The translations under genes and the position numbers were made by a program. A stretch of 64,000 nt of DNA. Origin: a virus. Lineage: Duplodnaviria; Caudoviricetes. The notes beneath the pieces were generated by a model, which was not told the origin of the DNA, did not search any database, and saw only the letters and a list, made by a program, of their open reading frames with translations. The DNA is taken from IMG/VR virus record IMGVR_UViG_3300030330_005471; one strand, 5' to 3'. The stretch's first letter is position 1, and the number at the start of each line of letters is the position of its first letter. This document shows, one piece after another, positions 11,768-31,635 of this stretch.

Positions 11768-12120
11768 TGTGGCAAAAGAAAAACAATGAATATAAAGGCA
11801 AGTCTTATTATTACTCAACGATAAACAAACTAAAGAAAGAAAAGAAGATAAACGATAAGTTTGAAAACATGCTATCTGCTCTAACTCTAGAAGAAATAAT
11901 AGCAGTTAAACTTGAGCTTTCCGCGAGATATCTCAACAACAGAATGTACAACTTTCAGATTTGGAAGTCACTGGAGTCTATTTGCAAAGAAGCTGTTGTT
12001 CGTTTTGCTCTTTCTTCATGCCGCTCAAAACTTGACGCCGCAAGCTTTTTAGGATTAAGTCTTGGTGAATTAAATATTAATTTAAAAAAAATGAACATTT
12101 TTCTTGACAACAAAGAATGA
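11767..12120 (+). CDS. Fis-like helix-turn-helix protein
   Basis: C-terminal KEAVVRFAL...KLDAASFLGLS...LNINLKKMNI matches the Fis/HTH_8 pattern. Confidence 0.55.
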   Translation: MWQKKNNEYKGKSYYYSTINKLKKEKKINDKFENMLSALTLEEIIAVKLELSARYLNNRMYNFQIWKSLESICKEAVVRFALSSCRSKLDAASFLGLSLGELNINLKKMNIFLDNKE

Positions 12121-12132
12121 ACGTGTTATAAT
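12104..12132 (+). promoter_or_regulatory. sigma70-type promoter
   Basis: TTGACA-17-TATAAT with TG extension. Confidence 0.85.
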
Positions 12133-12149
12133 ATAGTTGTAGGTGGAAA

Positions 12150-12977
12150 ATGAAAAACATTGTTTTATTTGACATGGATGGAACTCTTACCAAACCAAGG
12201 AAAGTGATCGAAGATGGTATCATCCCTGCTTTAAGGGAACTATCAAAGGTATCTGAAATTGGTATTGTTACTGGTTCTGATTATGATTATGTCCACCAAC
12301 AAATAGGAATGCTGCTGGAGAAGTCGGAGTTAAGATACCGAATTCATATCCTCCCCTGTAATGGCACAAAATATTATCCTCCTCCCAACAGTGCCAACAA
12401 AGAGTATCGAATAGCTCACCAAGTTAATATGAGAGAAAAATTAGGTGAAACCAAGTTTAGAGCTGTTATTTCGTACCTTCTCCAGCGGCAGCACCTTATG
12501 AAATTGTATGATATCCCTTTCACAGGTCACCATATAGATTATAGAGGTTCTCTTATCAACTGGTGTCCGATAGGACGAAATGCCAATGAAGCGGATAGAA
12601 CACAATTCATAGAATTTGATACTAAGGGCAGCAGCACCGACACATTTCGACACGACGAAATAAGAGGTTTTAATGTTCGAGTTATAAATGACATGCTTAT
12701 AAAGGATATTACAATTAAAATGGGCGGAGATACATCGTTTGATATATTCCCAATAGGATGGGATAAAACATATTGCCTAAGACATTTTAAAGATTATCAA
12801 CCAGCTTATTTTGTTGGTGATCGTTGTGAGCCAAACGGAAATGATTGGGAAATATACAACGCTCTTAGTTACAATGGCCGAGCTTTTAAAACCACAGGCC
12901 CTGAACAGACATCTGAAATTATCTTTGATCACATTATTCCTTCTATCCTGCGTAGCGGGGAACAAGATGATAGATGA
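12150..12977 (+). CDS. eukaryotic-type phosphomannomutase (HAD IIB, PMM family)
   Basis: LFDMDGTLT.PR, VTGSD, INWCPIGR, GGDTSFDIFPIGWDKTYCLRH, FVGD...GNDWEIY. Confidence 0.88.
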   Translation: MKNIVLFDMDGTLTKPRKVIEDGIIPALRELSKVSEIGIVTGSDYDYVHQQIGMLLEKSELRYRIHILPCNGTKYYPPPNSANKEYRIAHQVNMREKLGETKFRAVISYLLQRQHLMKLYDIPFTGHHIDYRGSLINWCPIGRNANEADRTQFIEFDTKGSSTDTFRHDEIRGFNVRVINDMLIKDITIKMGGDTSFDIFPIGWDKTYCLRHFKDYQPAYFVGDRCEPNGNDWEIYNALSYNGRAFKTTGPEQTSEIIFDHIIPSILRSGEQDDR

Positions 12978-18018: not shown

Positions 18019-18696
18019 ATGAGTTGGCTAGAAAACTCTATGAAAGAAGCAAAAAACTTAAAGGATCACTACATTATGCAAGGGGTGGATATATTCATTA
18101 AAGACAAACTCGATTCAAACATTGATGTCGATTTCGTTGTTCGATATATCTCAACCCGTCTCCCAAAGCATTTAATGATCTCTGTCGACATTATCTATGT
18201 TGGACACTTTAAGATGCTTGTTGATAGAGAAGTAACAGCCATCTATGAGGATGGAGCTATTTACTTGTCAAATGAACAAGATTCTGAAATGGACATGATC
18301 GATGATCTTATTCACGAAATAGCACACTCAAATGAAAAAAGATATCAAGATATAATCTATGGAGACGGAAAACTTGAATCTGAATTCTTAGCAAAGCGTA
18401 GAGCACTTCAAAATGTTCTTCTCAACCAAGAGAAGAAATACAAAGTGCCAATTCATTTTGCTTTAGATCCAACATATAGTAATGTAATCGATGATTTTTT
18501 ATACAAAGATGTTGGGTATAGTGCGTTGTGGCAAATGGTTCCGGGAATATTCCCCTCTCCATACGCTGCGACGTCTCTTCGTGAATACTTCGCGAGAGGC
18601 TTTGAAGAATACTTTATGGGTAATCCAAAAGAATTAAAAGAAGCCTGTCCTGTACTATACTCAAAGATGTATAAATTACACAATATGGAGGACTAA
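18019..18696 (+). CDS. zincin-like metallopeptidase domain protein
   Basis: LIHEIAHS plus downstream YAATSLREYFA...F. Confidence 0.65.
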   Translation: MSWLENSMKEAKNLKDHYIMQGVDIFIKDKLDSNIDVDFVVRYISTRLPKHLMISVDIIYVGHFKMLVDREVTAIYEDGAIYLSNEQDSEMDMIDDLIHEIAHSNEKRYQDIIYGDGKLESEFLAKRRALQNVLLNQEKKYKVPIHFALDPTYSNVIDDFLYKDVGYSALWQMVPGIFPSPYAATSLREYFARGFEEYFMGNPKELKEACPVLYSKMYKLHNMED

Positions 18697-19500: not shown

Positions 19501-19529
19501 TTGACAAAGCCATCACAACGTGTTATAAT
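19501..19529 (+). promoter_or_regulatory. sigma70-type promoter with A-tract UP element
   Basis: TTGACA-17-TATAAT with TG extension; three A7-8 tracts at 19474-19497. Confidence 0.88.
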
Positions 19530-19556: not shown

Positions 19557-20810
19557 TTGTCAAAAATTAAAGTGTTGACTTTGAGTGACCACCCACTTTC
19601 TCCATCGGGTGTTGGAACTCAAACAAAGTACATGTGTGAAGCTCTTCTCAAAACGGGAAGATATGAGATTATAAGTTTAGGTGGTGCGATAAAGCATAAA
19701 AATTATAATCCGGTTCAAGTCGAGCCATATGGAGAAGATTGGAAGATTGTTCCGGTCGATGGCTACGGAACTCAAGATATGATACGCTCTATCTTAAAAA
19801 CAGAGAAGCCTGACATTCTCTGGTTTATGACCGACCCCCGCTTTTATGGGTGGTTATGGGAGATTGAAAATGAAATACGTCCTCTTTGTTCAATGGTTTA
19901 CTACCATGTTTGGGACAACTTTCCTACACCTATGTTTAACCGTAGGTATTATCTCTCTAACGATCATATTGCCACTATCTCTAAAGTTACTGATGAAATT
20001 GTTAAACAGGCAGCACCAGAAGTAGACAGAACATACATACCACATGCGGTTCACCCCGATGTTTTTAGACCTTTTTCCGATGAAGATATCAAGAAGATAA
20101 GAGAAAACTCTTTGATTCCTGAAGATCGGGAAAAGGTCATTTTCTTTTGGAACAATAGAAATGCTAGAAGAAAGCAATCTGGGACTCTTGTCTGGTGGTT
20201 TAAAGAATGGCTTGATAAAGAAAACTTGCATGACAAAGCTTGTCTTATAATGCACACAGAGCCAAAAGATCCTCACGGACAAGATCTTGAACATATCATC
20301 AATCATCTAAAGCTAGAAGATAGACAGATCATGCTATCAACTCAAAAGATCTCCCCTCAAGATCTAGCATCTATGTATAATATGGTCGACTGTACCATTA
20401 ACATCTCAGACGCTGAGGGTTTTGGTTTGGCAACTCTTGAATCATTATCTTGCGGAACTCCCATCATTGTCAATATGACAGGAGGACTACAAGAACAAGT
20501 TACCGACGGAAACAACGAATTCGGAATACCCATCTTTCCTACCTCAAAGTCTGTCATAGGCTCTCAGCAAGTTCCATATATCTATGAAGATAGGATAAGC
20601 AAGAAACAGTTTCATTCTGCTCTAAACAAGATATATAAGATGGGACAAGAGAACAGGAGACAGCTTGGAATGGATGGTCGACAACATGTATTAGACAACT
20701 ACAACTTTCTTAACTTTGAAAAGCAATGGGTTGAGACAATGGATTCGGTATATGAAAAGAAAAATAGCCGAGACATCATCAACATTATTCGTTTTAAGGA
20801 GGTTGCATAA
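19557..20810 (+). CDS. glycosyltransferase, GT4-like (GT-B)
   Basis: NRNARRK; SDAEGFGLATLESLSCGTPII; TGGLQEQV. Confidence 0.9.
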   Translation: MSKIKVLTLSDHPLSPSGVGTQTKYMCEALLKTGRYEIISLGGAIKHKNYNPVQVEPYGEDWKIVPVDGYGTQDMIRSILKTEKPDILWFMTDPRFYGWLWEIENEIRPLCSMVYYHVWDNFPTPMFNRRYYLSNDHIATISKVTDEIVKQAAPEVDRTYIPHAVHPDVFRPFSDEDIKKIRENSLIPEDREKVIFFWNNRNARRKQSGTLVWWFKEWLDKENLHDKACLIMHTEPKDPHGQDLEHIINHLKLEDRQIMLSTQKISPQDLASMYNMVDCTINISDAEGFGLATLESLSCGTPIIVNMTGGLQEQVTDGNNEFGIPIFPTSKSVIGSQQVPYIYEDRISKKQFHSALNKIYKMGQENRRQLGMDGRQHVLDNYNFLNFEKQWVETMDSVYEKKNSRDIINIIRFKEVA

Positions 20811-22048
20811 TGAAGAAGAAGATATTTGTAAGAGGTCCCGTATTATCACAGAGTGGATACGGAGAACAATCTCGTTTCGCTTTGAGAGCGTTGAAGAGTC
20901 GAGAAGACTTATTTGATATTTATATCCAACCTATTCCATGGGGAAAAACCGGATGGATATGGCAAGAAGATGAATTACGTGAATGGATGGATAACAGAAT
21001 AGCTGAGACTCAAATACTCGGACAACAAAAACGACTAAACCCAGATATTTCACTACAGATTACAATACCAAACGAGTTTGAGAAACTATGTCCAGTAAAT
21101 ATAGCATACACAGCCGGTATTGAAACAAATAAATGTTCACCTCAATGGTTGCCTAAGTGTAATGAGATGGACAAGGTACTAGTTGTATCAAACCATGCAA
21201 AAACATCATTAGTTGACACGGTTGCAACAGCAAAGAATAACCAAACCGGCGAAGAGTTTCCTTATCGTTGTGAAACTCCCGTCGAAGTTGTGTGGGAAAA
21301 CACACCAAGACACGAACCAGAGGAGATAAATGGATTCGAATTACAATATGATAATAACTTCCTTGTTGTATCCCAAATGGGACCAAGAAAGAACTTTGAG
21401 AACACCGTCAAATGGTTTGTTGAAGAGTTTATCGACCAAGAAGTTGGTCTTGTTATTAAGACGAATGTTCGCTCGAACTGTTTGATGGATTTTGAAGCAA
21501 CTGAAAACATTCTTAAGAATATGCTTTCAAACTACCCAGAACGCAAATGCAAGGTCTATTTGCTTCACGGGGACCTAACCCCCGGTCAAATGACTGGACT
21601 CTATAGGAACCCCAAAATAGCCGCTTTAGTGAACATCTCTCATGGTGAAGGATTCGGACTTCCAATGTTTGAAGCTGCGAGAGAAGGTTTGCCGGTTGTC
21701 GCAATCGGATGGTCAGGACAAGTTGACTTTCTTCATGATAATGGCAAAGACTATTTCCAAAAGGTTGACTTCACAATGCAACCCGTGCAACCACAAGCTG
21801 TATGGGACGGAGTAATTGAGAAAGAATCTATGTGGGCGTTTGCTGATCAGGGAAGCTACAAGATGACCTTGAGAAGAACGCTAAAGAATATTGATAAGTG
21901 TCGAGAGACTGCTAAGGAGCTACAAGAGATTGTGAATGAGCGGTTTAGTGATGAAAGATTGTTTGAAGGGTTTTGTCATTCAATCTACAAACCTGACCCT
22001 GAAGTTGAAGAGTGGCTAGCTGAATTAGAGGAAATGGTAGATGCATAA
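20810..22048 (+). CDS. glycosyltransferase, GT4-like (GT-B)
   Basis: SGYG; PRKN; HGEGFGLPMFEAA...PVVA.GWSGQVDF. Confidence 0.9.
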   Translation: MKKKIFVRGPVLSQSGYGEQSRFALRALKSREDLFDIYIQPIPWGKTGWIWQEDELREWMDNRIAETQILGQQKRLNPDISLQITIPNEFEKLCPVNIAYTAGIETNKCSPQWLPKCNEMDKVLVVSNHAKTSLVDTVATAKNNQTGEEFPYRCETPVEVVWENTPRHEPEEINGFELQYDNNFLVVSQMGPRKNFENTVKWFVEEFIDQEVGLVIKTNVRSNCLMDFEATENILKNMLSNYPERKCKVYLLHGDLTPGQMTGLYRNPKIAALVNISHGEGFGLPMFEAAREGLPVVAIGWSGQVDFLHDNGKDYFQKVDFTMQPVQPQAVWDGVIEKESMWAFADQGSYKMTLRRTLKNIDKCRETAKELQEIVNERFSDERLFEGFCHSIYKPDPEVEEWLAELEEMVDA

Positions 22049-22892
22049 AGAAATTATATTTTTATCTGATTTTTATTACCCTGAATTCACAGGCGGTGCT
22101 GAATTAAATGATTATTCTTTAATTTCAAGACTCACAGAGGCAAGAAATTTAAAAATTTGTAAAATGAAATGTGCAGAGGTAGATTTGAATTTTATTAAAG
22201 ATAACAAAAGCAGTAAATTTATAGTTTCAAACTTTGTCACATTACCAGAAGCGGTTAAAAAGTATCTAATTTCTGACTGTAGATATATAATTTACGAACA
22301 CGATCACAAATATCTAAAGAAAAGAAATCCTATTTTTTATAAGGATTTTGTTGCACCCGAGCAAGAACTAGCAAATCAACAATTTTATAAAAATGCCGAG
22401 TCTGTAGTTTGTTTGACAAAACTAGCAGTTGATGTCTTTAAAGCAAATACTGGTTTGAATAACGCTTCTAGGATAGGCTCCTCTGTATGGACTGATAGTG
22501 ATCTTGACTATATTAACAAAATTAGAAAGAAAAATAAGAAAAATTGTTTTGCAATTATGGATAGTGAAAATCCAATAAAGAAAAAATATCAATGCATTGA
22601 ATATTGTAAGAAAAACAATATAAATTTTGAATTGATAAAAGATAACAGACACAGACACTTTTTAGATAGATTGAGCGAATACAGTGGACTAGTTTTTATG
22701 ACAGGGCACTTGGAAACGTGTTGTAGGATTATCGTTGAAGCAAAAATGTTGAATTTAAAAGTCATCACACAGAAAAAACTCATTGGAGCTGCTTCTGAGG
22801 AGTCTTTTAAATTAAACGGTGAACAGTTGGTCGACGAAATTAGAAGAGTATCTGCTAACTCGGTCAATTTATTTTTTGGAGGTAAACAATGA
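22041..22892 (+). CDS. putative GT-B glycosyltransferase-like protein
   Basis: GGAE N-terminal motif; ETCCRIIVEAKML resembles the GT4 Ex7E motif. Confidence 0.6.
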   Translation: MHKEIIFLSDFYYPEFTGGAELNDYSLISRLTEARNLKICKMKCAEVDLNFIKDNKSSKFIVSNFVTLPEAVKKYLISDCRYIIYEHDHKYLKKRNPIFYKDFVAPEQELANQQFYKNAESVVCLTKLAVDVFKANTGLNNASRIGSSVWTDSDLDYINKIRKKNKKNCFAIMDSENPIKKKYQCIEYCKKNNINFELIKDNRHRHFLDRLSEYSGLVFMTGHLETCCRIIVEAKMLNLKVITQKKLIGAASEESFKLNGEQLVDEIRRVSANSVNLFFGGKQ

Positions 22893-23182
22893 TTTATTAT
22901 ATTGATATTGATGAAACAATAGCGGAAACACCCGTTGACCGTGATTATACAAAAAGTAAGCCAATTATGAAGAACATAGATAAAGCTAACAAACTTTATG
23001 AAAAGGGAAATACAATAATTTACTGGACAGCAAGGGGTACCGTTAGCGGCTTAAATTGGAGAACTGTAACAGAAAAACAATTTGCTGACTGGGGTGTTAA
23101 ATATCATGAGTTGAAATTCGGAAAACCAAATTACGACATTTTAATTTGTGATAAGGCAATGAATTCAGAGGATTGGGAATGA
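22889..23182 (+). CDS. capless HAD phosphatase (capsule-biosynthesis type)
   Basis: IDIDET, YWTARG, GKP.YD...DK. Confidence 0.8.
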   Translation: MIYYIDIDETIAETPVDRDYTKSKPIMKNIDKANKLYEKGNTIIYWTARGTVSGLNWRTVTEKQFADWGVKYHELKFGKPNYDILICDKAMNSEDWE

Positions 23183-23817
23183 AAATAGTTTCAGTTATTA
23201 CTGCTCGCGGAGGAAGTAAAGGTGTACCTAGAAAAAACATTGTTGATGTGAATGGAAAGCCACTAATTTGGTATTCTATAAAGGCATCTTTAGATTCCAT
23301 TGTAGATGAAACTTGGGTGTCAACTGAGGATAAAGAGATAAAAAAGATTTCCCTCCTCAGCGGAGCAAAAGTTATAGACAGGCCTAAACATCTAGCAGAT
23401 GATATTATAATGCCAGACCCAGCACTATTACATGCGGCTGAAAATATCGATTTTGATGTTTTAGTATTTATCCAACCTTGTGCTGCTTTGATAAAGCCAA
23501 AATTTATTAATGAAGGTGTGAATTTGATAATTGAAAAAGGCTATGATTCTTCATTTGCTGTTGTTAGAGAAAGTTGGATGCCCGTTTGGACACTTGATGT
23601 CAAACCTATTGACTGGGATATTCACAGTAGACCCCGTAGGCAAGATAAGGAAGAGTGGTATAAGGAAGCTGGTATGTTCTATGTTACAACTAGAGAAGCT
23701 CTACTACAAAGTGGCTTAAGGTACAGTGGGAACATTGGGACCGTAGAGATACCCCTAAAAGACAGTTTTCAAATAGACAACTATCAAGATTTAGAACTCT
23801 TAAGGAAGGTTTTATGA
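23179..23817 (+). CDS. neuA: CMP-N-acylneuraminate (nonulosonate) synthetase
   Basis: ITARGGSKGVPRKN, GKPLI, VSTED, PRRQD, QID...DL. Confidence 0.92.
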   Translation: MKIVSVITARGGSKGVPRKNIVDVNGKPLIWYSIKASLDSIVDETWVSTEDKEIKKISLLSGAKVIDRPKHLADDIIMPDPALLHAAENIDFDVLVFIQPCAALIKPKFINEGVNLIIEKGYDSSFAVVRESWMPVWTLDVKPIDWDIHSRPRRQDKEEWYKEAGMFYVTTREALLQSGLRYSGNIGTVEIPLKDSFQIDNYQDLELLRKVL

Positions 23818-24563
23818 TAGTGGCAGAAATAGGTTTGAATCATATGGGTTGTGAGAAGTATTTAATGGATTATGTTAAGCATTTGATAGATTCTCCTGTC
23901 GATGCTATAACCCTACAGATAAGAGAAGAAAAATTTTATAAAAATACAAATTTTGGGGATTTGACCCTAGAACAGAGTGTCTATGATAAAGTTCATAAAA
24001 TAGTGTCTTCTAATAAAAAGAAATTTGGAATAGCAATTTCAGATTTAAGTTATCTTTCGTATTTTAATGACAAAGTTGACTTCTATAAAGTTTTAAGTAA
24101 AGACTTAAACAATGATGAAATCATGAACAAACTTATCAATCAAGTTGATAAGCCTATTTTTGTCTCAACGGGCCTGTCTTCATGTGATGAGATAAATTTA
24201 TTTATAAATAAAATAAAAGTTGACAAGAAGAAAAACATAAGTTTAATACATACAAGATTGAGCAATAGGGTTGAAGATACTAATTTAAAAGCAATAGAGA
24301 AGATGAAAAAACAATTCAAACTACCAGTAGCTTTTGGAAACCATTGTGAGAATCCAATGGTCACATACGCAGCTCTAGCTTTTGAACCCTCCGCTATTTT
24401 TTTATACATTAAAGGAAACAAGACCATTCAGCATCCTGACAACAATCACGCAATTCTTTTAAAGGATATCAGAGAATATTCAACAAATATTAAACAAATT
24501 GTAAAGTCTATTGGTAATGGACACAAAGAAATAACACATAACTCAATAAAGGGGCAAATATGA
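23814..24563 (+). CDS. neuB: NeuB-like nonulosonate synthase, short form without SAF domain
   Basis: IVAEIGLNHMG, KPIFVSTG, NLKAI..MK..F.LPVAFGNH, HPD. Confidence 0.75.
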   Translation: MIVAEIGLNHMGCEKYLMDYVKHLIDSPVDAITLQIREEKFYKNTNFGDLTLEQSVYDKVHKIVSSNKKKFGIAISDLSYLSYFNDKVDFYKVLSKDLNNDEIMNKLINQVDKPIFVSTGLSSCDEINLFINKIKVDKKKNISLIHTRLSNRVEDTNLKAIEKMKKQFKLPVAFGNHCENPMVTYAALAFEPSAIFLYIKGNKTIQHPDNNHAILLKDIREYSTNIKQIVKSIGNGHKEITHNSIKGQI

Positions 24564-25210
24564 GCAAAAAAGCAGTAGTAGTAGCAGGTTCCAGAGGTAT
24601 AGGTAAAGCAATCGCGGACTGCCTCTCAGACTTAAATTTTGATGTACTGGCTACCTCAAAAAAAGACCTAGATACATCAAATTTAAAAACAGTAAAAGAA
24701 TTTATAAATAAAAATCAAGAAACAGACGTCTTAGTACTAAACACAGGGGGTCCACCCGCTATTAACTTTTACAACATAACAGAAGATGAATTTCAAAAGT
24801 ACCATAATCAACTATTCTTGAGTTTCTGCTTGATGCTGCAGAATATTGAGATAAGAGATGGGGGATATGTTTTCTTAATTTCTTCATTCAATATTAAGGA
24901 ACCAAATCCGAAACTCTTACTTTCTAATTGCTACAGAATAGCATTTACTAGTGTTTTAAAGTCTCTTTCAAGAGAATTATCAAAGAGAAATGTAACCTGC
25001 ATAAACATAGCACCCGGACCAATAAAAACTGAAAGGTTGTATAATTTGGTAGAGAACATGGAAGAGTTTGAAAAACAATTACCACTACAGCGAGCCGCTG
25101 AACCATCAGAACTAGGACTTTTTGTAAAAACAATTGTTGAAAATAACATAAAATACTTGAATGGTGTCACAATTAATTTTGACGGTGGTCATTCAAATTA
25201 TGTTTTATAA
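24560..25210 (+). CDS. short-chain dehydrogenase/reductase
   Basis: AGSRGIG, NTGGP, IAPGPIKT, FDGG. Confidence 0.88.
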   Translation: MSKKAVVVAGSRGIGKAIADCLSDLNFDVLATSKKDLDTSNLKTVKEFINKNQETDVLVLNTGGPPAINFYNITEDEFQKYHNQLFLSFCLMLQNIEIRDGGYVFLISSFNIKEPNPKLLLSNCYRIAFTSVLKSLSRELSKRNVTCINIAPGPIKTERLYNLVENMEEFEKQLPLQRAAEPSELGLFVKTIVENNIKYLNGVTINFDGGHSNYVL

Positions 25211-25236
25211 ATTTATATTTTAAAAAAGGAAAAAAA

Positions 25237-26694
25237 ATGTTTTATATTTTTGAAATGGCAAATAATCACCAAGGCAGCGTTGAACATGCTAAAAAGATTA
25301 TAGATGAATTTGCTGCTCTATCGGCTAAAATGAAAATAAGATCGGGCATTAAATTGCAATTTAGACAATTAGATACGTTTATTCACAAAGACTTTAAAAA
25401 TTCTGATTTAAAGTTTGTTAAAAGATTTAATTCAACAAGACTGTCGAAAGAGCAGTTTTTAGAAATAGTAGAATATATCAAGGACTCTGGTATGGTTCCT
25501 ATAGCAACACCATTCGATAATGAGTCTTTATCTTGGTTTGAAGAATTTGAAATACCAGTTGTCAAAGTAGCAAGTTGCTCTGTTGACGATTGGCCACTGT
25601 TGAATGAAATATGCAAAATTAATAAAAAAATAATTATCTCAACTGCTGGTGCTGATTTTAAAACACTGAAAAAAGTTTATAGATTGTTTAAAACAAACAA
25701 AAGAGATTTTTCCTTTATGCACTGTGTTGGCGAGTACCCAACTCCTATTGAAAATTCAAATTTAGAAAGGATAGAGCTTTTAAAAGCTGAATTTTGTGAT
25801 GTAGAAATTGGCTTTTCAACACACGAATCGCCAAACCAAAAATCAATGAGTCCATATGCTGTCGCAATGGGTTGTACTATTTTAGAAAAACATGTAGGAG
25901 TAGAGACTGACACTATCAAGCTCAATGCATACTCCAACACTTCTAAGCAAATGGAAGAAACAATAAGAGAAATACAATTAGTCCAATCCGCTATAACAGG
26001 TGTGTCTGCTATAGAAACAGAGTCGCTGCTAAGATTGAAAAGAGGTGCCTATCTCAAAAATAATTTAAAAGCAGGTCAAACAATAAAAGAAGAAGATATC
26101 TATTACGCAATGCCAGTACAAGACAACCAGTTTAACGCGTCGAACATAGATTCTTATTTAAATAAAAAGGTTGCTGAAAATCTAAGAATGGACTCGCCAT
26201 TGATGAAAAATTGCATAGCAAACGAAAATTCTGATACTATTGAAATCATCAAAGCAAAGATAGCTAAAATTCTTAGTGAGGCGAAAATTGCTATGTCTGG
26301 GTTTGAAAAAATTCAACTTTCTTGCCACTATGGTTTAGACAATTTTTATGAATACGGAGCAGTAATTGTCGATAAAATAAACAGAGAATATTGCAAGAAA
26401 CTAATCATTATGATGCCTCAACAAAAACATCCATCACATAGACATATAAAAAAAGAGGAGGCATTTGAGCTGTTACATGGAGATTGCACGTTATTTCTAA
26501 ATGACAAAGAAATATGCTTACAAAAGGGTATGCCTGTGTTGATACCCAGAGGCGTTCGACATTCTTTTACTAGTAAAACAGGCTGTGTCATAGAGGAAAT
26601 TTCAACAACTCATCACATTGGAGACTCAATTTACGAAGATGTGAAGATAAACACGTTAAATATTTCCGACAGGAAAATAAACATAAAAGTATAA
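25237..26694 (+). CDS. neuB: NeuB-like synthase + SAF domain + C-terminal cupin
   Basis: FEMANNHQG, ATPFD, KVASC, MHCVGEYPTP, GFSTHE, LEKH; cupin HPSHRHIKKEE...RHSF...IEEIST. Confidence 0.85.
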   Translation: MFYIFEMANNHQGSVEHAKKIIDEFAALSAKMKIRSGIKLQFRQLDTFIHKDFKNSDLKFVKRFNSTRLSKEQFLEIVEYIKDSGMVPIATPFDNESLSWFEEFEIPVVKVASCSVDDWPLLNEICKINKKIIISTAGADFKTLKKVYRLFKTNKRDFSFMHCVGEYPTPIENSNLERIELLKAEFCDVEIGFSTHESPNQKSMSPYAVAMGCTILEKHVGVETDTIKLNAYSNTSKQMEETIREIQLVQSAITGVSAIETESLLRLKRGAYLKNNLKAGQTIKEEDIYYAMPVQDNQFNASNIDSYLNKKVAENLRMDSPLMKNCIANENSDTIEIIKAKIAKILSEAKIAMSGFEKIQLSCHYGLDNFYEYGAVIVDKINREYCKKLIIMMPQQKHPSHRHIKKEEAFELLHGDCTLFLNDKEICLQKGMPVLIPRGVRHSFTSKTGCVIEEISTTHHIGDSIYEDVKINTLNISDRKINIKV

Positions 26695-26703
26695 AGGAAA
26701 ACA

Positions 26704-27483
26704 ATGAATTTTAAAGAAAAATTTGATAAGTTTGGTTTTTTAGTCCTTAGAAAAGCTTTTGATGTTGAAGCTTGTAAGGTTCTAAAAGAAACAATTTTAG
26801 AATATTTCACAAACGAACAAGGACAACTATTAAAAAATACGACCAAAAACTATAGAGACGGAAAACAATGCACTGCACCTATGGCTTTTAATAACGTGGA
26901 ATTATATAAATTGAATACAATATTTAATAACAAAAAACTGAACGACACACTAAACGATATAACTGGAAATAAACTAATGTTTCTTCATCATTCTGATGCT
27001 CATGTGGATACTGTTGCTGGAAAAGGATGGCACACAGACGCCATAAACAATTCTGACGGTAGGCAAGGTCGACGATGGAAAGATATGTACATAACTAAGG
27101 ATTTTTGGTCAATTCAAGATAAAGAAAAATATTGTGTAATAAGAATAGCACTATACCTGCAACAACACACAGATGATAAAAATGGCCTATTTGTCAGAGC
27201 TGGTAGTCACAATAAAGGCAAAATTCAAAAAGAGCTTTATGTTAAAACAAATTTAGGAGATGTCATATTATTTGATGCAAGACTCCAGCATCGTGGAGGC
27301 TCAACTGTTAGAAAAGGTGACAAAAGAGCAGCAATTTTTTGGGCCATGGGGCGAGATAACGTTTTTTCTCATGAACATGCCAACGCAGCTATAGCAAGAC
27401 AAATACACCAACTTGGGATACATGAATACATAATGAATATGCAAGTAAAAAAAATTTTAGATAAGAATAATATAGGATACTAA
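26704..27483 (+). CDS. PhyH-like Fe(II)/2-oxoglutarate dioxygenase
   Basis: F...GFLVLR, GWHTD, GSH, GDVILFD.RLQHRGG, R. Confidence 0.78.
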   Translation: MNFKEKFDKFGFLVLRKAFDVEACKVLKETILEYFTNEQGQLLKNTTKNYRDGKQCTAPMAFNNVELYKLNTIFNNKKLNDTLNDITGNKLMFLHHSDAHVDTVAGKGWHTDAINNSDGRQGRRWKDMYITKDFWSIQDKEKYCVIRIALYLQQHTDDKNGLFVRAGSHNKGKIQKELYVKTNLGDVILFDARLQHRGGSTVRKGDKRAAIFWAMGRDNVFSHEHANAAIARQIHQLGIHEYIMNMQVKKILDKNNIGY

Positions 27484-28413
27484 ATGAGTTTAGCAATTTT
27501 TATAAAAAGTGCTGGTGACAATATAAACAAAGAGAATCTAAAAGATACTTTATCTTCTATTGTCAAAAACACAAAAGAAGAATTTGAACTACATTTGGTT
27601 TTGGAAGAATCTCAAAAAAAAGTCTTAAATGGTCTGAAAATTGATAAACACTTAGGATCTGTAAAAACAGCAAATCCTAAAACATCTTGGGCTGAAGACT
27701 TTAATATGTTTTTCGATTCGGTAAAAAATACTCATGAGTGGTTGCTTTATTGTCATGATGACCTTGAAATTTTAACACCGGGCTGGTTCACAAAAAGTAA
27801 AAAAATTGTAGGAAGTCGGCAAGATATTGGATGGATAACATATAGTCAACCAACTTGGTATATGCACTATGGCGAGCCAAGATCTCAAGTTGCAAGACCC
27901 GGTTTTCATTCTGATAGGTTTTCTTATCCTTGTATTCATGAGTGTCACAAATACGATAGAGGCCGAGACTGGAACAATAAAAAATTAATGAAGGAAAAAT
28001 TACATTTGCCAAAAAAGCCTGTAAAAATACATGGGCCATACTCTGTCTTTAATTTAATAAAAATGCATAACATGAAAAAAATTGGATTTTGTGAAGATTG
28101 GAATCCATACACAATGTTAATTGATGAGGATTGGGCACTTGAGTCGTTAAAAAACAATCTTATCAATATTTGGATTCCGAATGTGTTTTATCTACACCCA
28201 TTAAGATGGAAAGAAAGAAAATCACCAGACCGGTTCAAAAAACAAGCTCAAAAAGGTTTTTTCAATAAATGGGGCTTCAACGGAGGAACAGCCCACATTA
28301 CGGACAACGAAATAGAATATATCTGTGAGCGCTATGCTGATACCAATGTTCCTTGGTCTAGGAACAGACTTTCTTATGACTGGGAATATATAGAGGAAAA
28401 TCATAATGAATAA
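27484..28413 (+). CDS. putative GT-A (GT2-like) glycosyltransferase
   Basis: LLYCHDD (DxD-like), IGFCEDW...IDEDW, YLHP. Confidence 0.6.
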   Translation: MSLAIFIKSAGDNINKENLKDTLSSIVKNTKEEFELHLVLEESQKKVLNGLKIDKHLGSVKTANPKTSWAEDFNMFFDSVKNTHEWLLYCHDDLEILTPGWFTKSKKIVGSRQDIGWITYSQPTWYMHYGEPRSQVARPGFHSDRFSYPCIHECHKYDRGRDWNNKKLMKEKLHLPKKPVKIHGPYSVFNLIKMHNMKKIGFCEDWNPYTMLIDEDWALESLKNNLINIWIPNVFYLHPLRWKERKSPDRFKKQAQKGFFNKWGFNGGTAHITDNEIEYICERYADTNVPWSRNRLSYDWEYIEENHNE

Positions 28414-29002
28414 CGAAAATTATAGGTTTTGGAAAAAAGTTTGGAATTCGAAGGGAGAAAGCAACAGTGTAGATCTTTTGTTCCTAGATGGTTATGAACA
28501 CTTAGAGTCCAATTTTTCAAGTCAACAAATTACACAAGAAATTATCAATAGCTTGAAAATTAATAATACAGATCGTGTCTTAGAAGTTGCTTGTGGTTGT
28601 GGGTTTTTATCCAGAGAATTTAATAATTTATGCACTTATGTAGGAGTTGATTACTCAAAACCAATAATTGCAAAGCACAAAGAACTATTCAAACATGAGG
28701 TGTATGTTTGTGAGTCTAACAATTTGTTTTTTCAGGACAATAGTTTTGACCATGTGTTTTGTTATGGACTATTTCAGTACCTGCCAAATATAGAATATGC
28801 CGAACAGACTATAGCCGAGATGTGCAGGGTTTCAAAAAACGGTATTTATTTGGGAGATCTAAAGAAAACAAAAACCAGAGATCAACACTTTGTTTATCCG
28901 GTGTTTAAATTACAAGATAAAGATTTTAGATTTAGCAAGTGTATACACACACCTAAAAATCAAGATCGGTTCAATGCGTACAAAATAAAAGGAGAAGTAT
29001 GA
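28406..29002 (+). CDS. class I SAM-dependent methyltransferase
   Basis: VLEVACGCG, GVDYS, FQDNSFD.V. Confidence 0.9.
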   Translation: MNNENYRFWKKVWNSKGESNSVDLLFLDGYEHLESNFSSQQITQEIINSLKINNTDRVLEVACGCGFLSREFNNLCTYVGVDYSKPIIAKHKELFKHEVYVCESNNLFFQDNSFDHVFCYGLFQYLPNIEYAEQTIAEMCRVSKNGIYLGDLKKTKTRDQHFVYPVFKLQDKDFRFSKCIHTPKNQDRFNAYKIKGEV

Positions 29003-29556
29003 TTTGGAATGAAATTTTATGCGTAGGAGATTCAATCACTTACGGAGCTAGAGATGAGTTTGGAAGATCCTTCCCAGCTGAATTGGCACAAATGTTGACA
29101 AATGAAACTGGTGAAGTGTATTTCTGTCACAATCATGGTGTAAACGGAGAAACAAGTTCCGACTTGTTGAGAAGGATTTGGAAAGCCTGCAGTTCGCACA
29201 AAGAGAGTAAGATAATGACTATTCTCATAGGAACTAATGATACACAAAAAGATATCCCCACTAACATCTATGAAGACAATTTGAGGCAAATTATAACAAC
29301 GGGAAAAATTTTTAAAAAACACATCTTCCTCTTGACTCTTCCAAAACTGGACTTTACTCCTTTGTATTTAACAAATTCTAATAACATAAATGAATACAAT
29401 TTGATTATCAAAAAACTAGCATTGGAGTATAATTTAAATTTAATTAATCTAAATGGTGTTGAAAAACACTACATTGACGGAGTTCATTTTAAAAATTCCG
29501 GAAATATAGAAATAGCAAAAAGAATAAAAACGGTAATATTAAATTCACAAACTTAG
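28999..29556 (+). CDS. SGNH/GDSL hydrolase (possible O-acetylesterase/transferase)
   Basis: VGDSITYG, GVNG, IGTND, DGVH. Confidence 0.92.
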   Translation: MIWNEILCVGDSITYGARDEFGRSFPAELAQMLTNETGEVYFCHNHGVNGETSSDLLRRIWKACSSHKESKIMTILIGTNDTQKDIPTNIYEDNLRQIITTGKIFKKHIFLLTLPKLDFTPLYLTNSNNINEYNLIIKKLALEYNLNLINLNGVEKHYIDGVHFKNSGNIEIAKRIKTVILNSQT

Positions 29557-29565
29557 GAGAAAAAA

Positions 29566-30513
29566 ATGAAAATATTAATAACAGGTTGTAAAGGAGTTGT
29601 GGGTTCAAAATTATTTGAAGTTTTGTCAAATAATGGCCACGATGTTTTTGGAGTTGACCTTATGCATACTAATGATGTTTATGGCCACGGCCTTGGCTCC
29701 GTTGCTGAACAAAATTATTTTCGTTGTGACATTTCTGAATATAGACAAATATCTTCTGTCGTAGAATTTGTAAAACCAGATCTGATTTACAATTGTGCTG
29801 CTGAATTTGGAAGATGGAATGGTGAACATTTTTACGAACATGTTTGGAGAACAAATACTATAGGTTTAAAACACATTATCAGATTGCAAGAAAAGTATCG
29901 GTTTAAGCTAATACAATGTTCAACATCAGAAGTGTATGGTGATTATTATGATGTTATGTGGGAAAATGTTCTAAATAAAACACCAATTGTTCAATTAAAT
30001 GATTATGCTATCTCAAAAAGAGCTAACGAGATGCAAATTTTTAATTCAAGAACACAATATGACACGGAAACAGTCATAGTTAGGATATTCAACACCTATG
30101 GTCCCGGTGAGTGGTATCATCCATTTAGAAGTGTAAACTGCTTGTTTACATACAATTTATTACATAATAAACCAATAACTGTCTTTTCTGGTCATACGAG
30201 AACAAGTACCTATATTTATGATTGTGTTGATGCACTATCGGAAATAGCGAACAATTTTAAAAACGGAGAAATATACAATCTAGCCTCAACACAACATCAT
30301 ACAATAGAATATTTGGCAAATTTGATACTTGAAGAAACTGGTGCTGATCCTTCTTTGGTTAGTTGGTGTAACACCAGTGAAATTTTAACCACCAAAGACA
30401 AATTTGTAAATGCAGAAAAAGCTGCACGGGACTTAAAAATGAAAGAAAGTGTCACACTAAAAGAAGGAGTAAACAGAACAGTTAAGTGGATGAGGGAGTT
30501 TTACAGAGTATGA
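29566..30513 (+). CDS. NAD-dependent nucleotide-sugar epimerase/dehydratase
   Basis: ITGCKGVVG, STSEVYG, YAISK, RIFNTYGPG. Confidence 0.92.
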   Translation: MKILITGCKGVVGSKLFEVLSNNGHDVFGVDLMHTNDVYGHGLGSVAEQNYFRCDISEYRQISSVVEFVKPDLIYNCAAEFGRWNGEHFYEHVWRTNTIGLKHIIRLQEKYRFKLIQCSTSEVYGDYYDVMWENVLNKTPIVQLNDYAISKRANEMQIFNSRTQYDTETVIVRIFNTYGPGEWYHPFRSVNCLFTYNLLHNKPITVFSGHTRTSTYIYDCVDALSEIANNFKNGEIYNLASTQHHTIEYLANLILEETGADPSLVSWCNTSEILTTKDKFVNAEKAARDLKMKESVTLKEGVNRTVKWMREFYRV

Positions 30514-31178
30514 AATTCTTACATAGTCTTAAAAATTGTAGAGCTTTCTTAAAAGGAGATATTCATCCAAGCGATACCTGTTCAGTCGTTGGAAATTCAG
30601 GTGTTTTATTGAAACAAAACAATGGCACCATAATAGATAGTGCAGAACAGGTCATAAGATTCAATTGGGCAAAGTGTAATGGCTTTGAAAATCATGTTGG
30701 CCGCAAAACAACAATAAGAGTGGTGAATTGTCATCTTATCTTAAACATAGATAACAAAGAATATTTTAAAGTGCAGAAGCAGAGATACCCTTCATTAGAT
30801 AGATACGAGTTGTACAATTTTAAAGATGAAATTATAGTTTTCAAAACAGATCCAAGCTGGCAACTGTGGAAGAAAAAAGAAATTATATCAAAGGTTGAGA
30901 AAAATAATGAGGTATTCTTTATTCATGAAGATTTTTATAATTTAGCAAAAAAAATAAATAATAACAAAGAAGCATCAAATGGGTTTATTGGTGTTTTACT
31001 ATCACTAAGAAATAATGTCACAACAAACTGTTTTGGATTTTCTTTTTATAAGGACAATGAAAAAAAACATTATTACGAAAAAGTAGTTTATGATAAACAA
31101 CACTTGGGTCACAACTTTGATTTAGAACACAAGTGGTTTAGCTTATTTGAAAAGAATAAGTTAATTAAGATATATTGA
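30510..31178 (+). CDS. GT29-family sialyltransferase
   Basis: Sialylmotif L CSVVGNSGVLL...IDSAEQVIRFN.A...GFE..VGRKTT; motif S SNGFIGV...FGF; motif 3 HYYE; motif VS HNFDLE. Confidence 0.88.
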   Translation: MKFLHSLKNCRAFLKGDIHPSDTCSVVGNSGVLLKQNNGTIIDSAEQVIRFNWAKCNGFENHVGRKTTIRVVNCHLILNIDNKEYFKVQKQRYPSLDRYELYNFKDEIIVFKTDPSWQLWKKKEIISKVEKNNEVFFIHEDFYNLAKKINNNKEASNGFIGVLLSLRNNVTTNCFGFSFYKDNEKKHYYEKVVYDKQHLGHNFDLEHKWFSLFEKNKLIKIY

Positions 31179-31192
31179 AAAAAGGAGAAAAA

Positions 31193-31384
31193 ATGAAATT
31201 ATCTGATCAAGCAATGGGAGCCATCATGATGGCGCTGCAAAAATCCCTATTAGAACAAACGGACATTGTCCCTGTTCTTAAAAACTTTGAGCTGGAACTT
31301 ATGGACGATGGAACTCTTCTTGTCAAGAATCCACCAGTTGTGAAAGCCAAAAAGACCCCAACAATCTTAACAGGAAAAGAGTAA
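31193..31384 (+). CDS. hypothetical protein
   Basis: AAGGAG SD; MKLSDQAMGAIMMALQKSLLEQ. Confidence 0.65.
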   Translation: MKLSDQAMGAIMMALQKSLLEQTDIVPVLKNFELELMDDGTLLVKNPPVVKAKKTPTILTGKE

Positions 31385-31635
31385 TGCCTAGGTATGTTTA
31401 CGAATGCTCAGGTTGCGGTGGTCAATTTCAAACGGTTCATGGGATGAACGAAGAGCAACACAAGTGCGAGCTTTGCTTTTCGTTTGTCTCGGAGCTTAAG
31501 AGAATACCTCAAATGACCTACACTCAAAATAAAGAAACTCAATCAGCTCAGAGAGTAAAAGAGGCCATTGAAGAGAATCGAGAGATTCTTAGACAAGCTT
31601 CAAAAGAAGCAAAGGACAAAACATATGACGGTTAA
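31384..31635 (+). CDS. FmdB-family zinc-ribbon protein
   Basis: MPRYVYECSGCG...CELC. Confidence 0.8.
   Translation: MPRYVYECSGCGGQFQTVHGMNEEQHKCELCFSFVSELKRIPQMTYTQNKETQSAQRVKEAIEENREILRQASKEAKDKTYDG

What the first reader, a model, noticed from the sequence alone, without database searches (positions are those of the whole stretch)
19557..31178. Phage-encoded nonulosonic-acid synthesis, activation and transfer pathway ending in a eukaryote-type GT29 sialyltransferase
Seen: one co-directional run behind a consensus promoter, with two GT4s, a GT-B-like gene, HAD phosphatase, NeuA, two NeuB-like synthases, SDR, dioxygenase, GT-A, methyltransferase, SGNH, epimerase and a GT29 with sialylmotifs L, S, 3 and VS but no signal anchor. 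Known: bacterial sialyltransferases are normally GT38/42/52/80; GT29 is mainly eukaryotic and Golgi-anchored. Virion glycosylation is established for some phages. Inference: the phage builds a sialylated-type glycan in the cytoplasm, most plausibly on its virion since the locus abuts the late sigma and baseplate genes, or else on the host surface.
Basis: partly seen in the sequence, partly recalled or inferred. Interest (0 to 1): 0.88.

Follow-up and report, generated by a model that had tools for sequence, protein, structure and literature searches.

The report
Phage sugar-acid pathway with soluble GT29
An uncultured marine phage carries a complete gene set for making, activating and attaching a sialic-acid-like sugar, ending in a small anchor-less relative of animal sialyltransferases; the same module recurs in many related phages, but what it decorates is still unknown.

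Summary
Window 19557-31178 is one co-directional block behind a perfect sigma-70 promoter (19501-19529). Its last gene (30510-31178, 222 aa) is a true GT29: Pfam PF00777 E 2e-27, all four sialylmotifs invariant in the family, and an AlphaFold model (pLDDT 94) whose 30 best PDB matches are all mammalian GT29 enzymes.

"Eukaryote-type" is misleading. The protein sits in a large clade of anchor-less proteins of about 200-230 aa, mostly on phage contigs. Anchor-less bacterial GT29 was already reported in 2018.

It is phage DNA. The same GT29 lies in the same place in many independent marine contigs. In 14 of 21 loci of 9 kb or more it lies within 10 kb of a NeuB-family synthase. The recurring core is NeuB, a cupin, a CMP-sugar synthetase, a 97-aa HAD phosphatase and a PhyH dioxygenase. 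A 484-kb phage carries five GT29 copies in such an island.

No NeuC, aminotransferase or acetyltransferase is present, so the sugar is more likely KDN-like than Neu5Ac.

Gene 22041-22892 folds as a compact GT-B enzyme and is fused to GT29 in some relatives.

The target (virion, host envelope or DNA) is unresolved, and the gene-adjacency argument for the virion is weak.

Other first-reader notes of this scan cover this same stretch; I did not find it noted on other DNA.

The parts
19501..19529 (+). Perfect sigma-70-type promoter with extended -10 in front of the island
   Evidence: 12 of 12 match, TG before the -10. One of 4 perfect sites in the window against 0.1 expected.
19557..20810 (+). 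GT4 glycosyltransferase a (417 aa)
   Evidence: PF00534, 55.7 bits. 30% identical homologue at the same position, after the PD-(D/E)XK nuclease, in LR756508.
20810..22048 (+). GT4-like glycosyltransferase b (412 aa), borderline HMM support
   Evidence: PF20706, 28.7 bits (cut-off 26); PF00534, 20.2 bits, below cut-off. 46-68% homologues in L008, L011, L017 and L049.
22041..22892 (+). Compact GT-B-fold glycosyltransferase (283 aa), a phage-specific family fused to GT29 in some relatives
   Evidence: No Pfam hit. Model pLDDT 84.6. All top PDB matches are GT-B enzymes: PimB', GlgM, Gtf3/GtfC, MshA. 35% identity, E 2e-52, to residues 2-267 of the 504-aa fusion protein P0028, whose C-terminus is GT29.
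22889..23182 (+). Minimal 97-aa HAD-type phosphatase candidate
   Evidence: DxDxT, T, K and D motifs by eye. TIGR01689 capsule-biosynthesis phosphatase, E 6e-4. Present at 42-77% identity in 17 GT29 or NeuB loci.
23173..23817 (+). CMP-ulosonic-acid synthetase (NeuA/PseF-like cytidylyltransferase)
   Evidence: PF02348, E 8e-15. PseF 118 bits against KdsB 27-44 bits, all below cut-offs.
23814..24563 (+). Short NeuB-family TIM barrel (249 aa), divergent; the second metal-binding His is not evident
   Evidence: PF03102, E 1e-21. PDB PseI E 9e-11. Sequence inspection. Conserved only in L011.
24560..25210 (+). Short-chain dehydrogenase/reductase
   Evidence: PF13561 and PF00106.
25237..26694 (+). 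NeuB-SAF-cupin fusion: ulosonic acid synthase joined to a metal cupin like D-lyxose/D-mannose isomerase
   Evidence: PF03102 137.8 bits, plus SAF and Cupin_2. Below the NeuB and PseI equivalog cut-offs. PDB 3g8r E 2e-69, N. meningitidis NeuB 1e-23, D-lyxose/D-mannose isomerase 7nzo E 5e-6. Metal His residues and both cupin motifs present. Split NeuB + cupin pair in L013.
26704..27483 (+). PhyH-type Fe(II)/2-oxoglutarate dioxygenase, part of the conserved core
   Evidence: PF05721. Co-occurs with GT29 and NeuB in more than 20 loci.
27484..28413 (+). Unassigned 309-aa protein, possible GT-A-like transferase (unverified)
   Evidence: No Pfam, NCBIfam or PDB match. Family with invariant HDD, DEDW and HP.
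28406..29002 (+). Class I SAM methyltransferase of small-molecule (UbiE/BioC-like) type
   Evidence: PF13649 and PF08241. NCBIfam weak hits only to small-molecule methyltransferases.
28999..29556 (+). SGNH/GDSL hydrolase or O-acyl-handling enzyme
   Evidence: PF13472, E 3e-20.
29566..30513 (+). NAD-dependent sugar-nucleotide epimerase/dehydratase
   Evidence: PF01370, E 2e-36. Best NCBIfam model dTDP-glucose 4,6-dehydratase, 107 bits, below cut-off.
30510..31178 (+). Soluble 222-aa GT29-family transferase (the terminal ulosonic-acid transferase)
   Evidence: PF00777, E 2e-27. Family profile against pig ST3Gal-I E 2e-24, spanning motifs L, S, III and VS. Invariant motif residues. Model pLDDT 93.8. 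Top 30 PDB matches are GT29, with GT42 next. No hydrophobic segment.
12104..12977 (+). Possibly linked supply gene: eukaryote-type phosphomannomutase behind the same kind of perfect promoter
   Evidence: PF03332, E 3e-35. Promoter at 12104-12132. The link to the island is inferred.

Best explanation
The block is a genuine glycan-synthesis island of an uncultured marine myovirus-like phage. It is probably transcribed by the host RNA polymerase from its own consensus promoter.

Shown: it encodes only soluble proteins.

Inferred pathway:
1. The NeuB-cupin enzyme makes a 3-deoxy-ulosonic acid from phosphoenolpyruvate and an aldose. The fused lyxose/mannose-isomerase-like cupin supplies that aldose.
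2. The 97-aa HAD protein removes a phosphate, which implies a phosphorylated intermediate.
3. The cytidylyltransferase makes the CMP-sugar.
4. The PhyH dioxygenase, SDR, methyltransferase, SGNH protein and epimerase tailor this or other sugars.
5. Three GT-B enzymes (two GT4s and the compact 22041 protein) build the underlying glycan. The 27484 protein may add a step.
6. The 222-aa GT29 adds the acidic sugar in the cytoplasm. It would use the same inverting, His-based chemistry as animal sialyltransferases.

Sugar identity: because no amino-sugar enzymes are present, the sugar is most likely non-aminated and KDN-like (about 0.45). Neu5Ac, legionaminic or pseudaminic acid is less likely.

Acceptor: unresolved. 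My estimates are virion protein about 0.35-0.4, host envelope glycolipid or capsule about 0.3, and DNA about 0.1.
For: Phage context:
- PhoH, a gp55-like late sigma and gp25/gp6 baseplate genes.
- The same order GT29 - zinc ribbon - sigma in more than 10 independent marine contigs. The whole island is colinear in L011.

GT29 identity.

Linkage:
- NeuB family within 10 kb in 14 of 21 loci of 9 kb or more. NeuB or the CMP synthetase in 16 of 21.
- The HAD protein and PhyH recur with them.
- NeuB and cupin stay adjacent even when they are separate genes.
- This NeuB hits only 3 of 50,697 catalogued phage records.

Other points:
- Natural fusion of the 22041-type GT-B domain with GT29.
- No NeuC, aminotransferase or acetyltransferase in the island.
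- The cytidylyltransferase scores best with a nonulosonic-acid model, not KdsB.
- A phosphomannomutase sits behind the same promoter type.
- No membrane segment, flippase, polymerase or priming transferase.
Against: - No enzyme was assayed.
- The NeuB subfamily is uncharacterised: its best PDB relative, 3g8r, has no assigned product.
- The HAD assignment rests on motifs.
- The short NeuB may be inactive.
- The L006 relative has GT29 (59% identical) with no NeuB or NeuA-type CMP-sugar (CTP_transf_3) synthetase in the 10 kb upstream; the only cytidylyltransferase-like gene there is an HldE-type heptose kinase/nucleotidyltransferase. Fucose-, galactofuranose- and heptose-type genes lie there instead. 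So the GT29 is not strictly tied to an in-cis donor pathway.
- GT29 relatives in plants and in E. coli K6 are proposed Kdo transferases (PMC5811610, PMC13171606), so a host CMP-Kdo donor is possible.
- Promoter matches are consensus hits only.
Confidence: 0.7

Rival explanations
1. The island remodels the host cell envelope. The soluble transferases would act at the cytoplasmic face on a host lipid-linked acceptor such as LPS core or a capsule primer. Host exporters would carry the product out, changing receptors to block superinfection or to keep progeny from sticking to debris.
For: - Host-type early-looking promoter, shared with the phosphomannomutase gene.
- GT4 enzymes and a GT29-GT107 protein of E. 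coli K6 work this way on lipid-linked acceptors (PMC13171606).
- Bacterial GT29 occurs in marine Gram-negatives with ulosonic acids in their LPS (PMC5811610).
- In LR756508 the island is far from structural genes.
Against: - No priming transferase, ligase, flippase or ABC exporter in the island, and no membrane-associated protein.
- The host is unknown.
- For a lytic phage the benefit is indirect.
Confidence: 0.3
2. The island hypermodifies the phage DNA, building a glycan with an ulosonic acid on a hydroxymethylated base.
For: - Phage gene clusters that put mono- to trisaccharides on DNA cytosine are reported. These include a Kdo-like ulosonic acid and heptose made with HAD and cytidylyltransferase genes (bioRxiv 10.1101/2023.12.21.572611).
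- The 27484 family keeps HDD and DEDW motifs, which loosely recall the DDD...EDY/F motifs of those DNA transferases.
- A PD-(D/E)XK nuclease directly precedes the island here and in LR756508.
Against: - No base-hydroxymethylating enzyme was found. There is no Tet/JBP hit in two related records.
- The thymidylate-synthase-family gene next to the island in LR756508 passes the canonical ThyA equivalog cut-off.
- The methyltransferase is of small-molecule type.
- The dioxygenase is PhyH-type, not TET-type.
- An earlier unchecked note (e1-5761042) says the early region avoids restriction sites. That would be less necessary if the DNA were glycosylated.
Confidence: 0.1
3. The sugar is a classical amino nonulosonic acid (Neu5Ac, legionaminic or pseudaminic acid). 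The precursor amino sugar would come from the host.
For: - NeuB-family and PseF-like hits.
- All biochemically characterised GT29 enzymes use CMP-sialic acids (established knowledge).
Against: - No NeuC, PseB/C/H/G or LegB/C-type genes in the island.
- Both NeuB-like proteins score far below the NeuB and PseI equivalog cut-offs.
- The conserved partner is an aldose-ketose-isomerase-like cupin, not an amino-sugar enzyme.
Confidence: 0.12
4. The block is host DNA mis-assembled into a phage contig, or the GT29 is a chance or degenerate match.
For: GC is slightly lower (0.31-0.34) than in the flanks (0.36-0.40).
Against: - The same genes are flanked by the same phage genes in many independent contigs from different samples.
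- No close relative in 185,579 species genomes with the two narrow peptide patterns used.
- Catalytic motifs are invariant across the family.
- The nearest protein clusters are 75-90% viral.
Confidence: 0.02

Closest known systems
Eukaryotic Golgi sialyltransferases, CAZy GT29 (ST3Gal-I, ST6Gal-I, ST6GalNAc-II, ST8Sia-III)
   Same: Same Pfam family. Same GT-A-variant fold (Foldseek E 4e-11, TM 0.64-0.70). Sialylmotifs L, S, III (HYYE) and VS (H-x4-E) are present with the catalytic His conserved.
   Different: About 20% identity. 222 aa with no N-terminal anchor or stem. The motif-S cysteine of the luminal disulfide is not at the eukaryotic position. The setting is cytoplasmic. It forms a separate clade in the tree. 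Donor and acceptor are unknown.
Anchor-less bacterial GT29-like proteins of marine Proteobacteria (Petit et al. 2018, PMC5811610) and the E. coli K6 GT29-GT107 capsule protein (PMC13171606)
   Same: Prokaryotic-world GT29 with sialylmotifs but without a transmembrane domain or the conserved disulfide. No donor has been shown biochemically for any of them; only the K6 protein has a proposed one, CMP-Kdo, inferred from MALDI-MS of the capsule polysaccharide.
   Different: Here the gene is on phage genomes and is part of a conserved ulosonic-acid module. PF00777 was found in only 5 of 401 sampled Pseudomonadota genomes. The one strong bacterial hit is 24% identical, and no homologue of the window's island genes was found in its 20-kb neighbourhood. 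No phage GT29 was found in the papers searched.
Bacteroides thetaiotaomicron KDN pathway: KDN-9-P synthase, HAD KDN-9-P phosphatase, CMP-KDN synthetase (recalled from memory)
   Same: Same three enzyme classes (NeuB family, small HAD phosphatase, cytidylyltransferase), and no amino-sugar steps.
   Different: The synthase is fused to, or paired with, a cupin isomerase. A PhyH dioxygenase is an obligatory neighbour. The phosphatase is a 97-aa minimal form. Substrates are untested.
Bifunctional capsule polymerases joining a GT-B hexosyltransferase to a sialyltransferase domain (N. meningitidis W/Y SiaD, GT4+GT97; recalled from memory and PMC5811610)
   Same: In relatives such as P0028 a GT-B domain homologous to 22041-22892 is fused to the ulosonic-acid transferase domain. 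This suggests consecutive or alternating transfers.
   Different: The sialyltransferase domain is GT29, not GT97. In the window the two are separate genes. No polymer has been shown.
Virus-encoded autonomous glycosylation: giant-virus fibril glycans and mycobacteriophage virion glycosylation (PMC9614988 and PMC4691112 by title or abstract only; the rest from memory)
   Same: A virus carries its own sugar-nucleotide pathways and soluble transferases.
   Different: No nonulosonic-acid transfer by a GT29 on a phage particle has been shown. The target here is unknown.

Membership tests
CAZy GT29 / Pfam PF00777 | Profile match above the curated cut-off | tested here: met
   96.7 bits against cut-off 23, E 2e-27. 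Family profile against ST3Gal-I E 2e-24 over the full length.
CAZy GT29 / Pfam PF00777 | Sialylmotifs L, S, III and VS with the catalytic His of motif VS | tested here: met
   C24-V27-G28-S30...D43...R50-N52, G158...G176-F177, H187-Y188 and H201...E206 are invariant or nearly so in 17 family members. They align to the ST3Gal-I motifs.
CAZy GT29 / Pfam PF00777 | GT-A variant 2 fold shared with solved GT29 structures | tested here: met
   Model pLDDT 93.8. PDB ranks 1-30 are all GT29, E down to 4e-11. GT42 CstII follows at 1e-4.
CAZy GT29 / Pfam PF00777 | Eukaryotic type II topology: signal anchor, stem, luminal L-S disulfide | tested here: not met
   No hydrophobic segment. No stem, since the protein is 222 aa. 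The motif-S Cys is displaced from the ST3Gal-I position. This is a feature of the eukaryotic branch, not of the CAZy family.
CAZy GT29 / Pfam PF00777 | Transfers a sialic or ulosonic acid from a CMP donor | not testable with these tools
   Only gene linkage to a CMP-sugar synthetase and a NeuB-family synthase.
Classical bacterial Neu5Ac pathway (NeuC-NeuB-NeuA) | Hydrolysing UDP-GlcNAc 2-epimerase NeuC | tested here: not met
   No such Pfam or NCBIfam hit in any island ORF.
Classical bacterial Neu5Ac pathway (NeuC-NeuB-NeuA) | NeuB equivalog-level match | tested here: not met
   TIGR03569 gives 140.9 and 80.3 bits against a cut-off of 399.65.
Pseudaminic / legionaminic acid pathways | 4,6-dehydratase plus aminotransferase plus N-acetyltransferase set | tested here: not met
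   No DegT or GNAT genes in the island. PseI gives 131.6 bits against a cut-off of 340; PseF gives 117.6 against 205.7.
KDN-type (non-amino) ulosonic acid pathway | NeuB-family synthase + HAD phosphatase + cytidylyltransferase with no amino-sugar enzymes | tested here: inconclusive
   The gene classes are present. The cupin resembles D-lyxose/D-mannose isomerase at E 5e-6. A phosphomannomutase is nearby. The substrate is untested and the HAD assignment is at motif level.
GT-B fold / GT4-like (gene 22041-22892) | Two-Rossmann GT-B fold | tested here: met
   All top PDB matches are GT-B enzymes, E 5e-6 to 3e-4.
GT-B fold / GT4-like (gene 22041-22892) | Sequence-profile membership of GT4 | tested here: not met
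   No Pfam hit. hhalign against GT4a gives probability 0.3%. Only GGxE and E-x7-E motifs by eye and a protein-atlas lead.
GT-A fold (gene 27484-28413) | GT-A fold with a DxD-type motif | tested here: inconclusive
   Invariant HDD and DEDW, but no HMM, PDB or profile match.

The most novel reading that the evidence does not exclude
A widespread lineage of marine myoviruses, up to a 484-kb phage with five GT29 copies, may coat its particles with a KDN-like acidic sugar. The likeliest carriers are the giant baseplate and fibre proteins, which are rich in [ST][GAS]S. The sugar would be added by a phage-specific family of miniature cytoplasmic GT29 enzymes. That would be the first 'sialylated' phage particle. 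It would also make phages a major prokaryotic-world reservoir of the enzyme family that eukaryotes use for sialylation.
Probability: 0.27. Interest if true: 0.85.

Novelty: new variant of a known kind. Interest (0 to 1): 0.62.

Why it matters
GT29 is the textbook animal sialyltransferase family. Its prokaryotic side is known only from a few in-silico bacterial sequences, and none has been characterised biochemically.

This work shows a large radiation of minimal, soluble GT29 enzymes (about 220 aa) on phage genomes. They are tied to a conserved donor-synthesis module and sometimes fused to a GT-B partner. That has four uses:
- It gives small, soluble candidates for testing GT29 chemistry and donor range (KDN, Kdo or new ulosonic acids).
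- It bears on where eukaryotic sialyltransferases came from.
- It points to an uncharacterised but abundant NeuB-cupin-PhyH pathway in the sea.
- It raises a testable question: do marine phages use acidic sugars on their particles, on their hosts or on their DNA?

Tried and rejected
Searches that found little or nothing:
- Megablast of the island against 50,697 phage records: no match.
- tblastn of the GT29 against plasmids: no match.
- Search of 185,579 species genomes with the close GT29 family: nothing.
- Sequence and profile searches of PDB for 22041 and 27484: nothing useful.
- hhalign of the 22041 family against GT4a, and of the 27484 family against a GT2: not significant.
- Pfam on the N-terminal domains of other GT29 fusions: no family.
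- Literature searches for phage GT29, PF00777 in viruses, phage nonulosonic-acid genes and NeuB-cupin: no relevant paper.

Ideas rejected:
- Thymidylate-synthase adjacency in LR756508 as a sign of DNA hydroxymethylation. The gene passes the canonical ThyA cut-off, and no Tet/JBP gene was found.
- Host mis-assembly, rejected by synteny.

Tools not available:
- No whole genome is held for the window.

Caveat on the tree: the 'long' group is assumed to be eukaryotic. Only one member was confirmed, a Cymbomonas protein.

Full report
**What is there**

Between 19557 and 31178 the window holds 14 tightly packed or overlapping ORFs, all on the + strand. A 12/12 sigma-70 promoter with an extended -10 lies at 19501-19529. 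The exact pattern TTGACA-N16-18-TATAAT occurs four times in the window, against 0.1 expected. The other + strand sites precede a phosphomannomutase gene (12104) and the 18019/nuclease pair (17968).

- A GT4, and a second, borderline GT4.
- A CTP_transf_3 cytidylyltransferase. It scores best with the PseF model and well above the KdsB models, though all are below cut-off.
- Two NeuB-family proteins.
- An SDR, a PhyH dioxygenase, a small-molecule-type methyltransferase, an SGNH protein and an NAD epimerase/dehydratase.
- A PF00777 (GT29) protein at E 2e-27, 96.7 bits against a cut-off of 23.

No island protein has a membrane-like segment.

**The GT29**

The gene most likely starts at ATG 30510. 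That gives 222 aa, identical to a catalogued protein.

In an alignment of 17 family members the residues of sialylmotifs L, S, III (HYYE) and VS (H-x4-E) are invariant or nearly so. A profile of the family aligns to pig ST3Gal-I over its whole catalytic domain, through all four motifs, at E 2e-24.

An AlphaFold model (pLDDT 93.8, pTM 0.91) has only mammalian GT29 structures among its 30 best PDB matches. These are ST6GalNAc-II, ST8Sia-III, ST3Gal-I and ST6Gal-I, with E down to 4e-11 and TM 0.64-0.70. The bacterial GT42 enzymes CstII and Cst-I follow at about 1e-4. The stated refutation ("does not model as GT29") therefore fails.

The eukaryotic branch features are absent. There is no anchor and no stem, and the motif-S cysteine is not at the ST3Gal-I position.

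**Which kind of GT29**

An exhaustive search of 1.8 billion cluster representatives gave 1888 hits at E of 1e-3 or better. Full-length matches to proteins of about 195-260 aa dominate them.

In a FastTree of 170 domains the window protein lies in a clade of 134 sequences with SH-like support 97. Almost all are such short proteins. The long, anchored or tandem-domain sequences lie outside; one was confirmed as a green alga. I assumed, rather than showed, that the other long ones are eukaryotic.

The protein atlas lists the nearest clusters (473, 68 and 65 members, 204-219 aa, PF00777) as 75-90% viral, mostly tailed phages. BFVD holds the identical protein as a viral UniProt entry. It also holds a [quoted passage not shown] entry.

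PF00777 was found in 5 of 401 sampled Pseudomonadota genomes. No close relative turned up in 185,579 species genomes with the patterns used.

Anchor-less, disulfide-less bacterial GT29 was reported by Petit et al. 2018 (PMC5811610). A GT29-GT107 protein is proposed to make a Kdo polymer in E. coli K6 (PMC13171606).

So "eukaryote-type" is right only at family level. I found no paper that describes a phage GT29.

**Phage origin and linkage**

The window carries PhoH, a gp55-like late sigma and gp25/gp6-like baseplate genes. Its distant catalogued relatives are a 484-kb uncultured phage and Flavobacterium and Microcystis myoviruses.

Forty-eight related loci were fetched from IMG/VR and marine metagenomes.
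- In the closer ones GT29 always sits just upstream of the same zinc-ribbon, membrane-protein and sigma genes.
- L011 is colinear with the whole island, from GT4b to GT29.
- With iterated profile searches, 14 of 21 loci of 9 kb or more have a NeuB-family gene within the fetched 10 kb. Sixteen have NeuB or the CMP synthetase.
- The 97-aa HAD protein and the PhyH dioxygenase travel with them.
- Several of the negative loci lack sequence on the relevant side.

In L013 the NeuB and the cupin are separate adjacent genes, next to PhyH and GT29. In L005 the order is GT29, NeuB-cupin, a DHDPS/NanA-family gene, the CMP synthetase and PhyH.

The 484-kb phage LR756508 has the order PD-(D/E)XK nuclease, GT4a, GT29..., GT29, NeuB, three more GT29 genes, HAD.

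This NeuB hits only 3 of 50,697 phage records, so the linkage is far from chance. Mis-assembly of host DNA is excluded by this repeated synteny.

One real exception is L006. Its 59%-identical GT29 is preceded for 10 kb by genes of other kinds. They are GDP-mannose dehydratase, GT11, UDP-galactopyranose mutase, and GmhA- and HldE-like heptose genes. The island is thus a variable glycan cassette with GT29 at its fixed end.

**Which sugar**

The island has no NeuC, aminotransferase or acetyltransferase.

The 485-aa synthase keeps the NeuB metal histidines but scores far below the NeuB and PseI equivalog cut-offs. Its best solved relative is an uncharacterised Chromobacterium protein, 3g8r (E 2e-69, against 1e-23 for N. 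meningitidis NeuB).

Its C-terminal cupin has both metal-binding motifs. It is closest to D-lyxose/D-mannose isomerases, at E 5e-6. Such fusions are very abundant in marine metagenomes.

The 97-aa protein has the four HAD motifs. A eukaryote-type phosphomannomutase lies 7 kb upstream behind the same promoter type.

The simplest reading is a KDN-like route:
1. A ketose or ketose-phosphate is isomerised to a mannose-configured aldose.
2. That aldose is condensed with PEP.
3. The product is dephosphorylated.
4. It is CMP-activated.
5. It is then tailored by PhyH, the methyltransferase, SGNH and the reductases.

This is inference. An eight-carbon product from lyxose, or use of host CMP-Kdo, is not excluded. 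Two earlier first-reader notes on the same stretch reached the KDN-like idea independently. I tested it only at the level of gene content and homology.

**The partner transferases**

Gene 22041-22892 has no HMM match. It is 55-57% conserved in four GT29 loci. It is also 35% identical (E 2e-52) to the first 267 residues of P0028, a 504-aa metagenomic protein whose C-terminus is a GT29 domain.

Its model (pLDDT 84.6) matches only GT-B enzymes: PimB', GlgM, Gtf3/GtfC and MshA. The natural fusion argues that this GT-B enzyme and the GT29 act consecutively on one acceptor. That recalls two-domain capsule polymerases.

The "GT-A" call for 27484-28413 remains unverified.

**What is decorated**

This is open.

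For a virion protein:
- All enzymes are soluble, and there is no lipid-priming or export gene.
- Other viruses have autonomous sugar pathways.
- The tripeptide [ST][GAS]S is strongly enriched in three baseplate-region proteins: 12 seen against 1.9 expected, 56 against 19.9, and 9 against 3.1 (z = 7.1, 8.0 and 3.4). It is almost absent elsewhere in the window. That pattern could equally be structural.

Against the adjacency argument:
- The island has a host-type promoter and lies at an early/late junction.
- In LR756508 it lies beside thyA and a nuclease, about 226 kb from the sigma gene.

Host-envelope remodelling through host exporters is about as plausible.

DNA hypermodification is a real but weaker rival.
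- Phage clusters that attach glycans, including a Kdo-like acid, to cytosine are published.
- Here no hydroxymethylating enzyme was found.
- The neighbouring thymidylate-synthase gene in LR756508 is canonical ThyA.
- The methyltransferase and the dioxygenase are of the wrong types.

**Verdict**

- It is a new phage-borne variant of a known enzyme family and pathway type.
- It rests on strong comparative evidence.
- Biochemistry, donor identity and acceptor are untested.

Expression and wider context therefore could not be checked.

Noticed in passing
window 12104-12977: A eukaryote-type phosphomannomutase (PF03332, E 3e-35) sits behind a perfect sigma-70 promoter of the same kind as the island's. 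It may supply mannose phosphates to the island.
   Followed up: partly
window 7505-7533 (-), 12104-12132, 17968-17996, 19501-19529 (+): Four perfect TTGACA-N17-TGTTATAAT promoters where 0.1 are expected. All have the extended -10, which suggests a defined class of host-polymerase promoters in this phage.
   Followed up: partly
window 43842-45326, 45326-56425, 56437-60030: The tripeptide [ST][GAS]S is enriched over residue-shuffled expectation (12 vs 1.9, 56 vs 19.9, 9 vs 3.1) and nearly absent from the other 35 ORFs tested. It could be a glycosylation site or just a structural repeat.
   Followed up: partly
L056 (LR756508.1 300000-345000): The 484-kb uncultured phage has five GT29 paralogues in one island with NeuB, the HAD protein and a GT4a homologue. 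Canonical thyA and the same PD-(D/E)XK nuclease directly precede it.
   Followed up: partly
L006 1-10000: A variant island in a related phage. In front of a 59%-identical GT29 it carries a DegT aminotransferase, a C-methyltransferase, GDP-mannose 4,6-dehydratase, a GT11 (fucosyltransferase family), a SIS/GmhA-like gene, UDP-galactopyranose mutase and an HldE-like kinase/nucleotidyltransferase. No NeuB lies in those 10 kb.
   Followed up: partly
L049 (PBLX01000021.1, binned as a Legionellales MAG): This 55.8-kb contig carries GT4b (48%), NeuB-cupin (66%) and the 97-aa HAD (42%) of this phage lineage, but no GT29 anywhere in that genome bin. It may be a phage contig binned into a bacterial MAG.
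   Followed up: no
window 7534-8925: A 463-aa protein with a NUDIX domain, plus a weak N-terminal match to phosphoheptose-isomerase- or HAD-IIIA-type profiles. It may be another sugar-nucleotide-handling enzyme.
   Followed up: no
window 18019-18696: A 225-aa ORF between PhoH and the nuclease has weak matches to metallopeptidase profiles (Peptidase_M90, ATLF), below cut-offs.
   Followed up: no
window 31194-31385: A small unannotated 63-codon ORF with a good ribosome-binding site lies between the GT29 and the zinc-ribbon gene.
   Followed up: no
P0027, P0083, P0112, P0132 (metagenomic GT29 relatives): Further GT29 fusions of 396-436 aa carry N-terminal domains of about 170-230 aa with no Pfam family. 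These are additional partner domains worth folding.
   Followed up: partly
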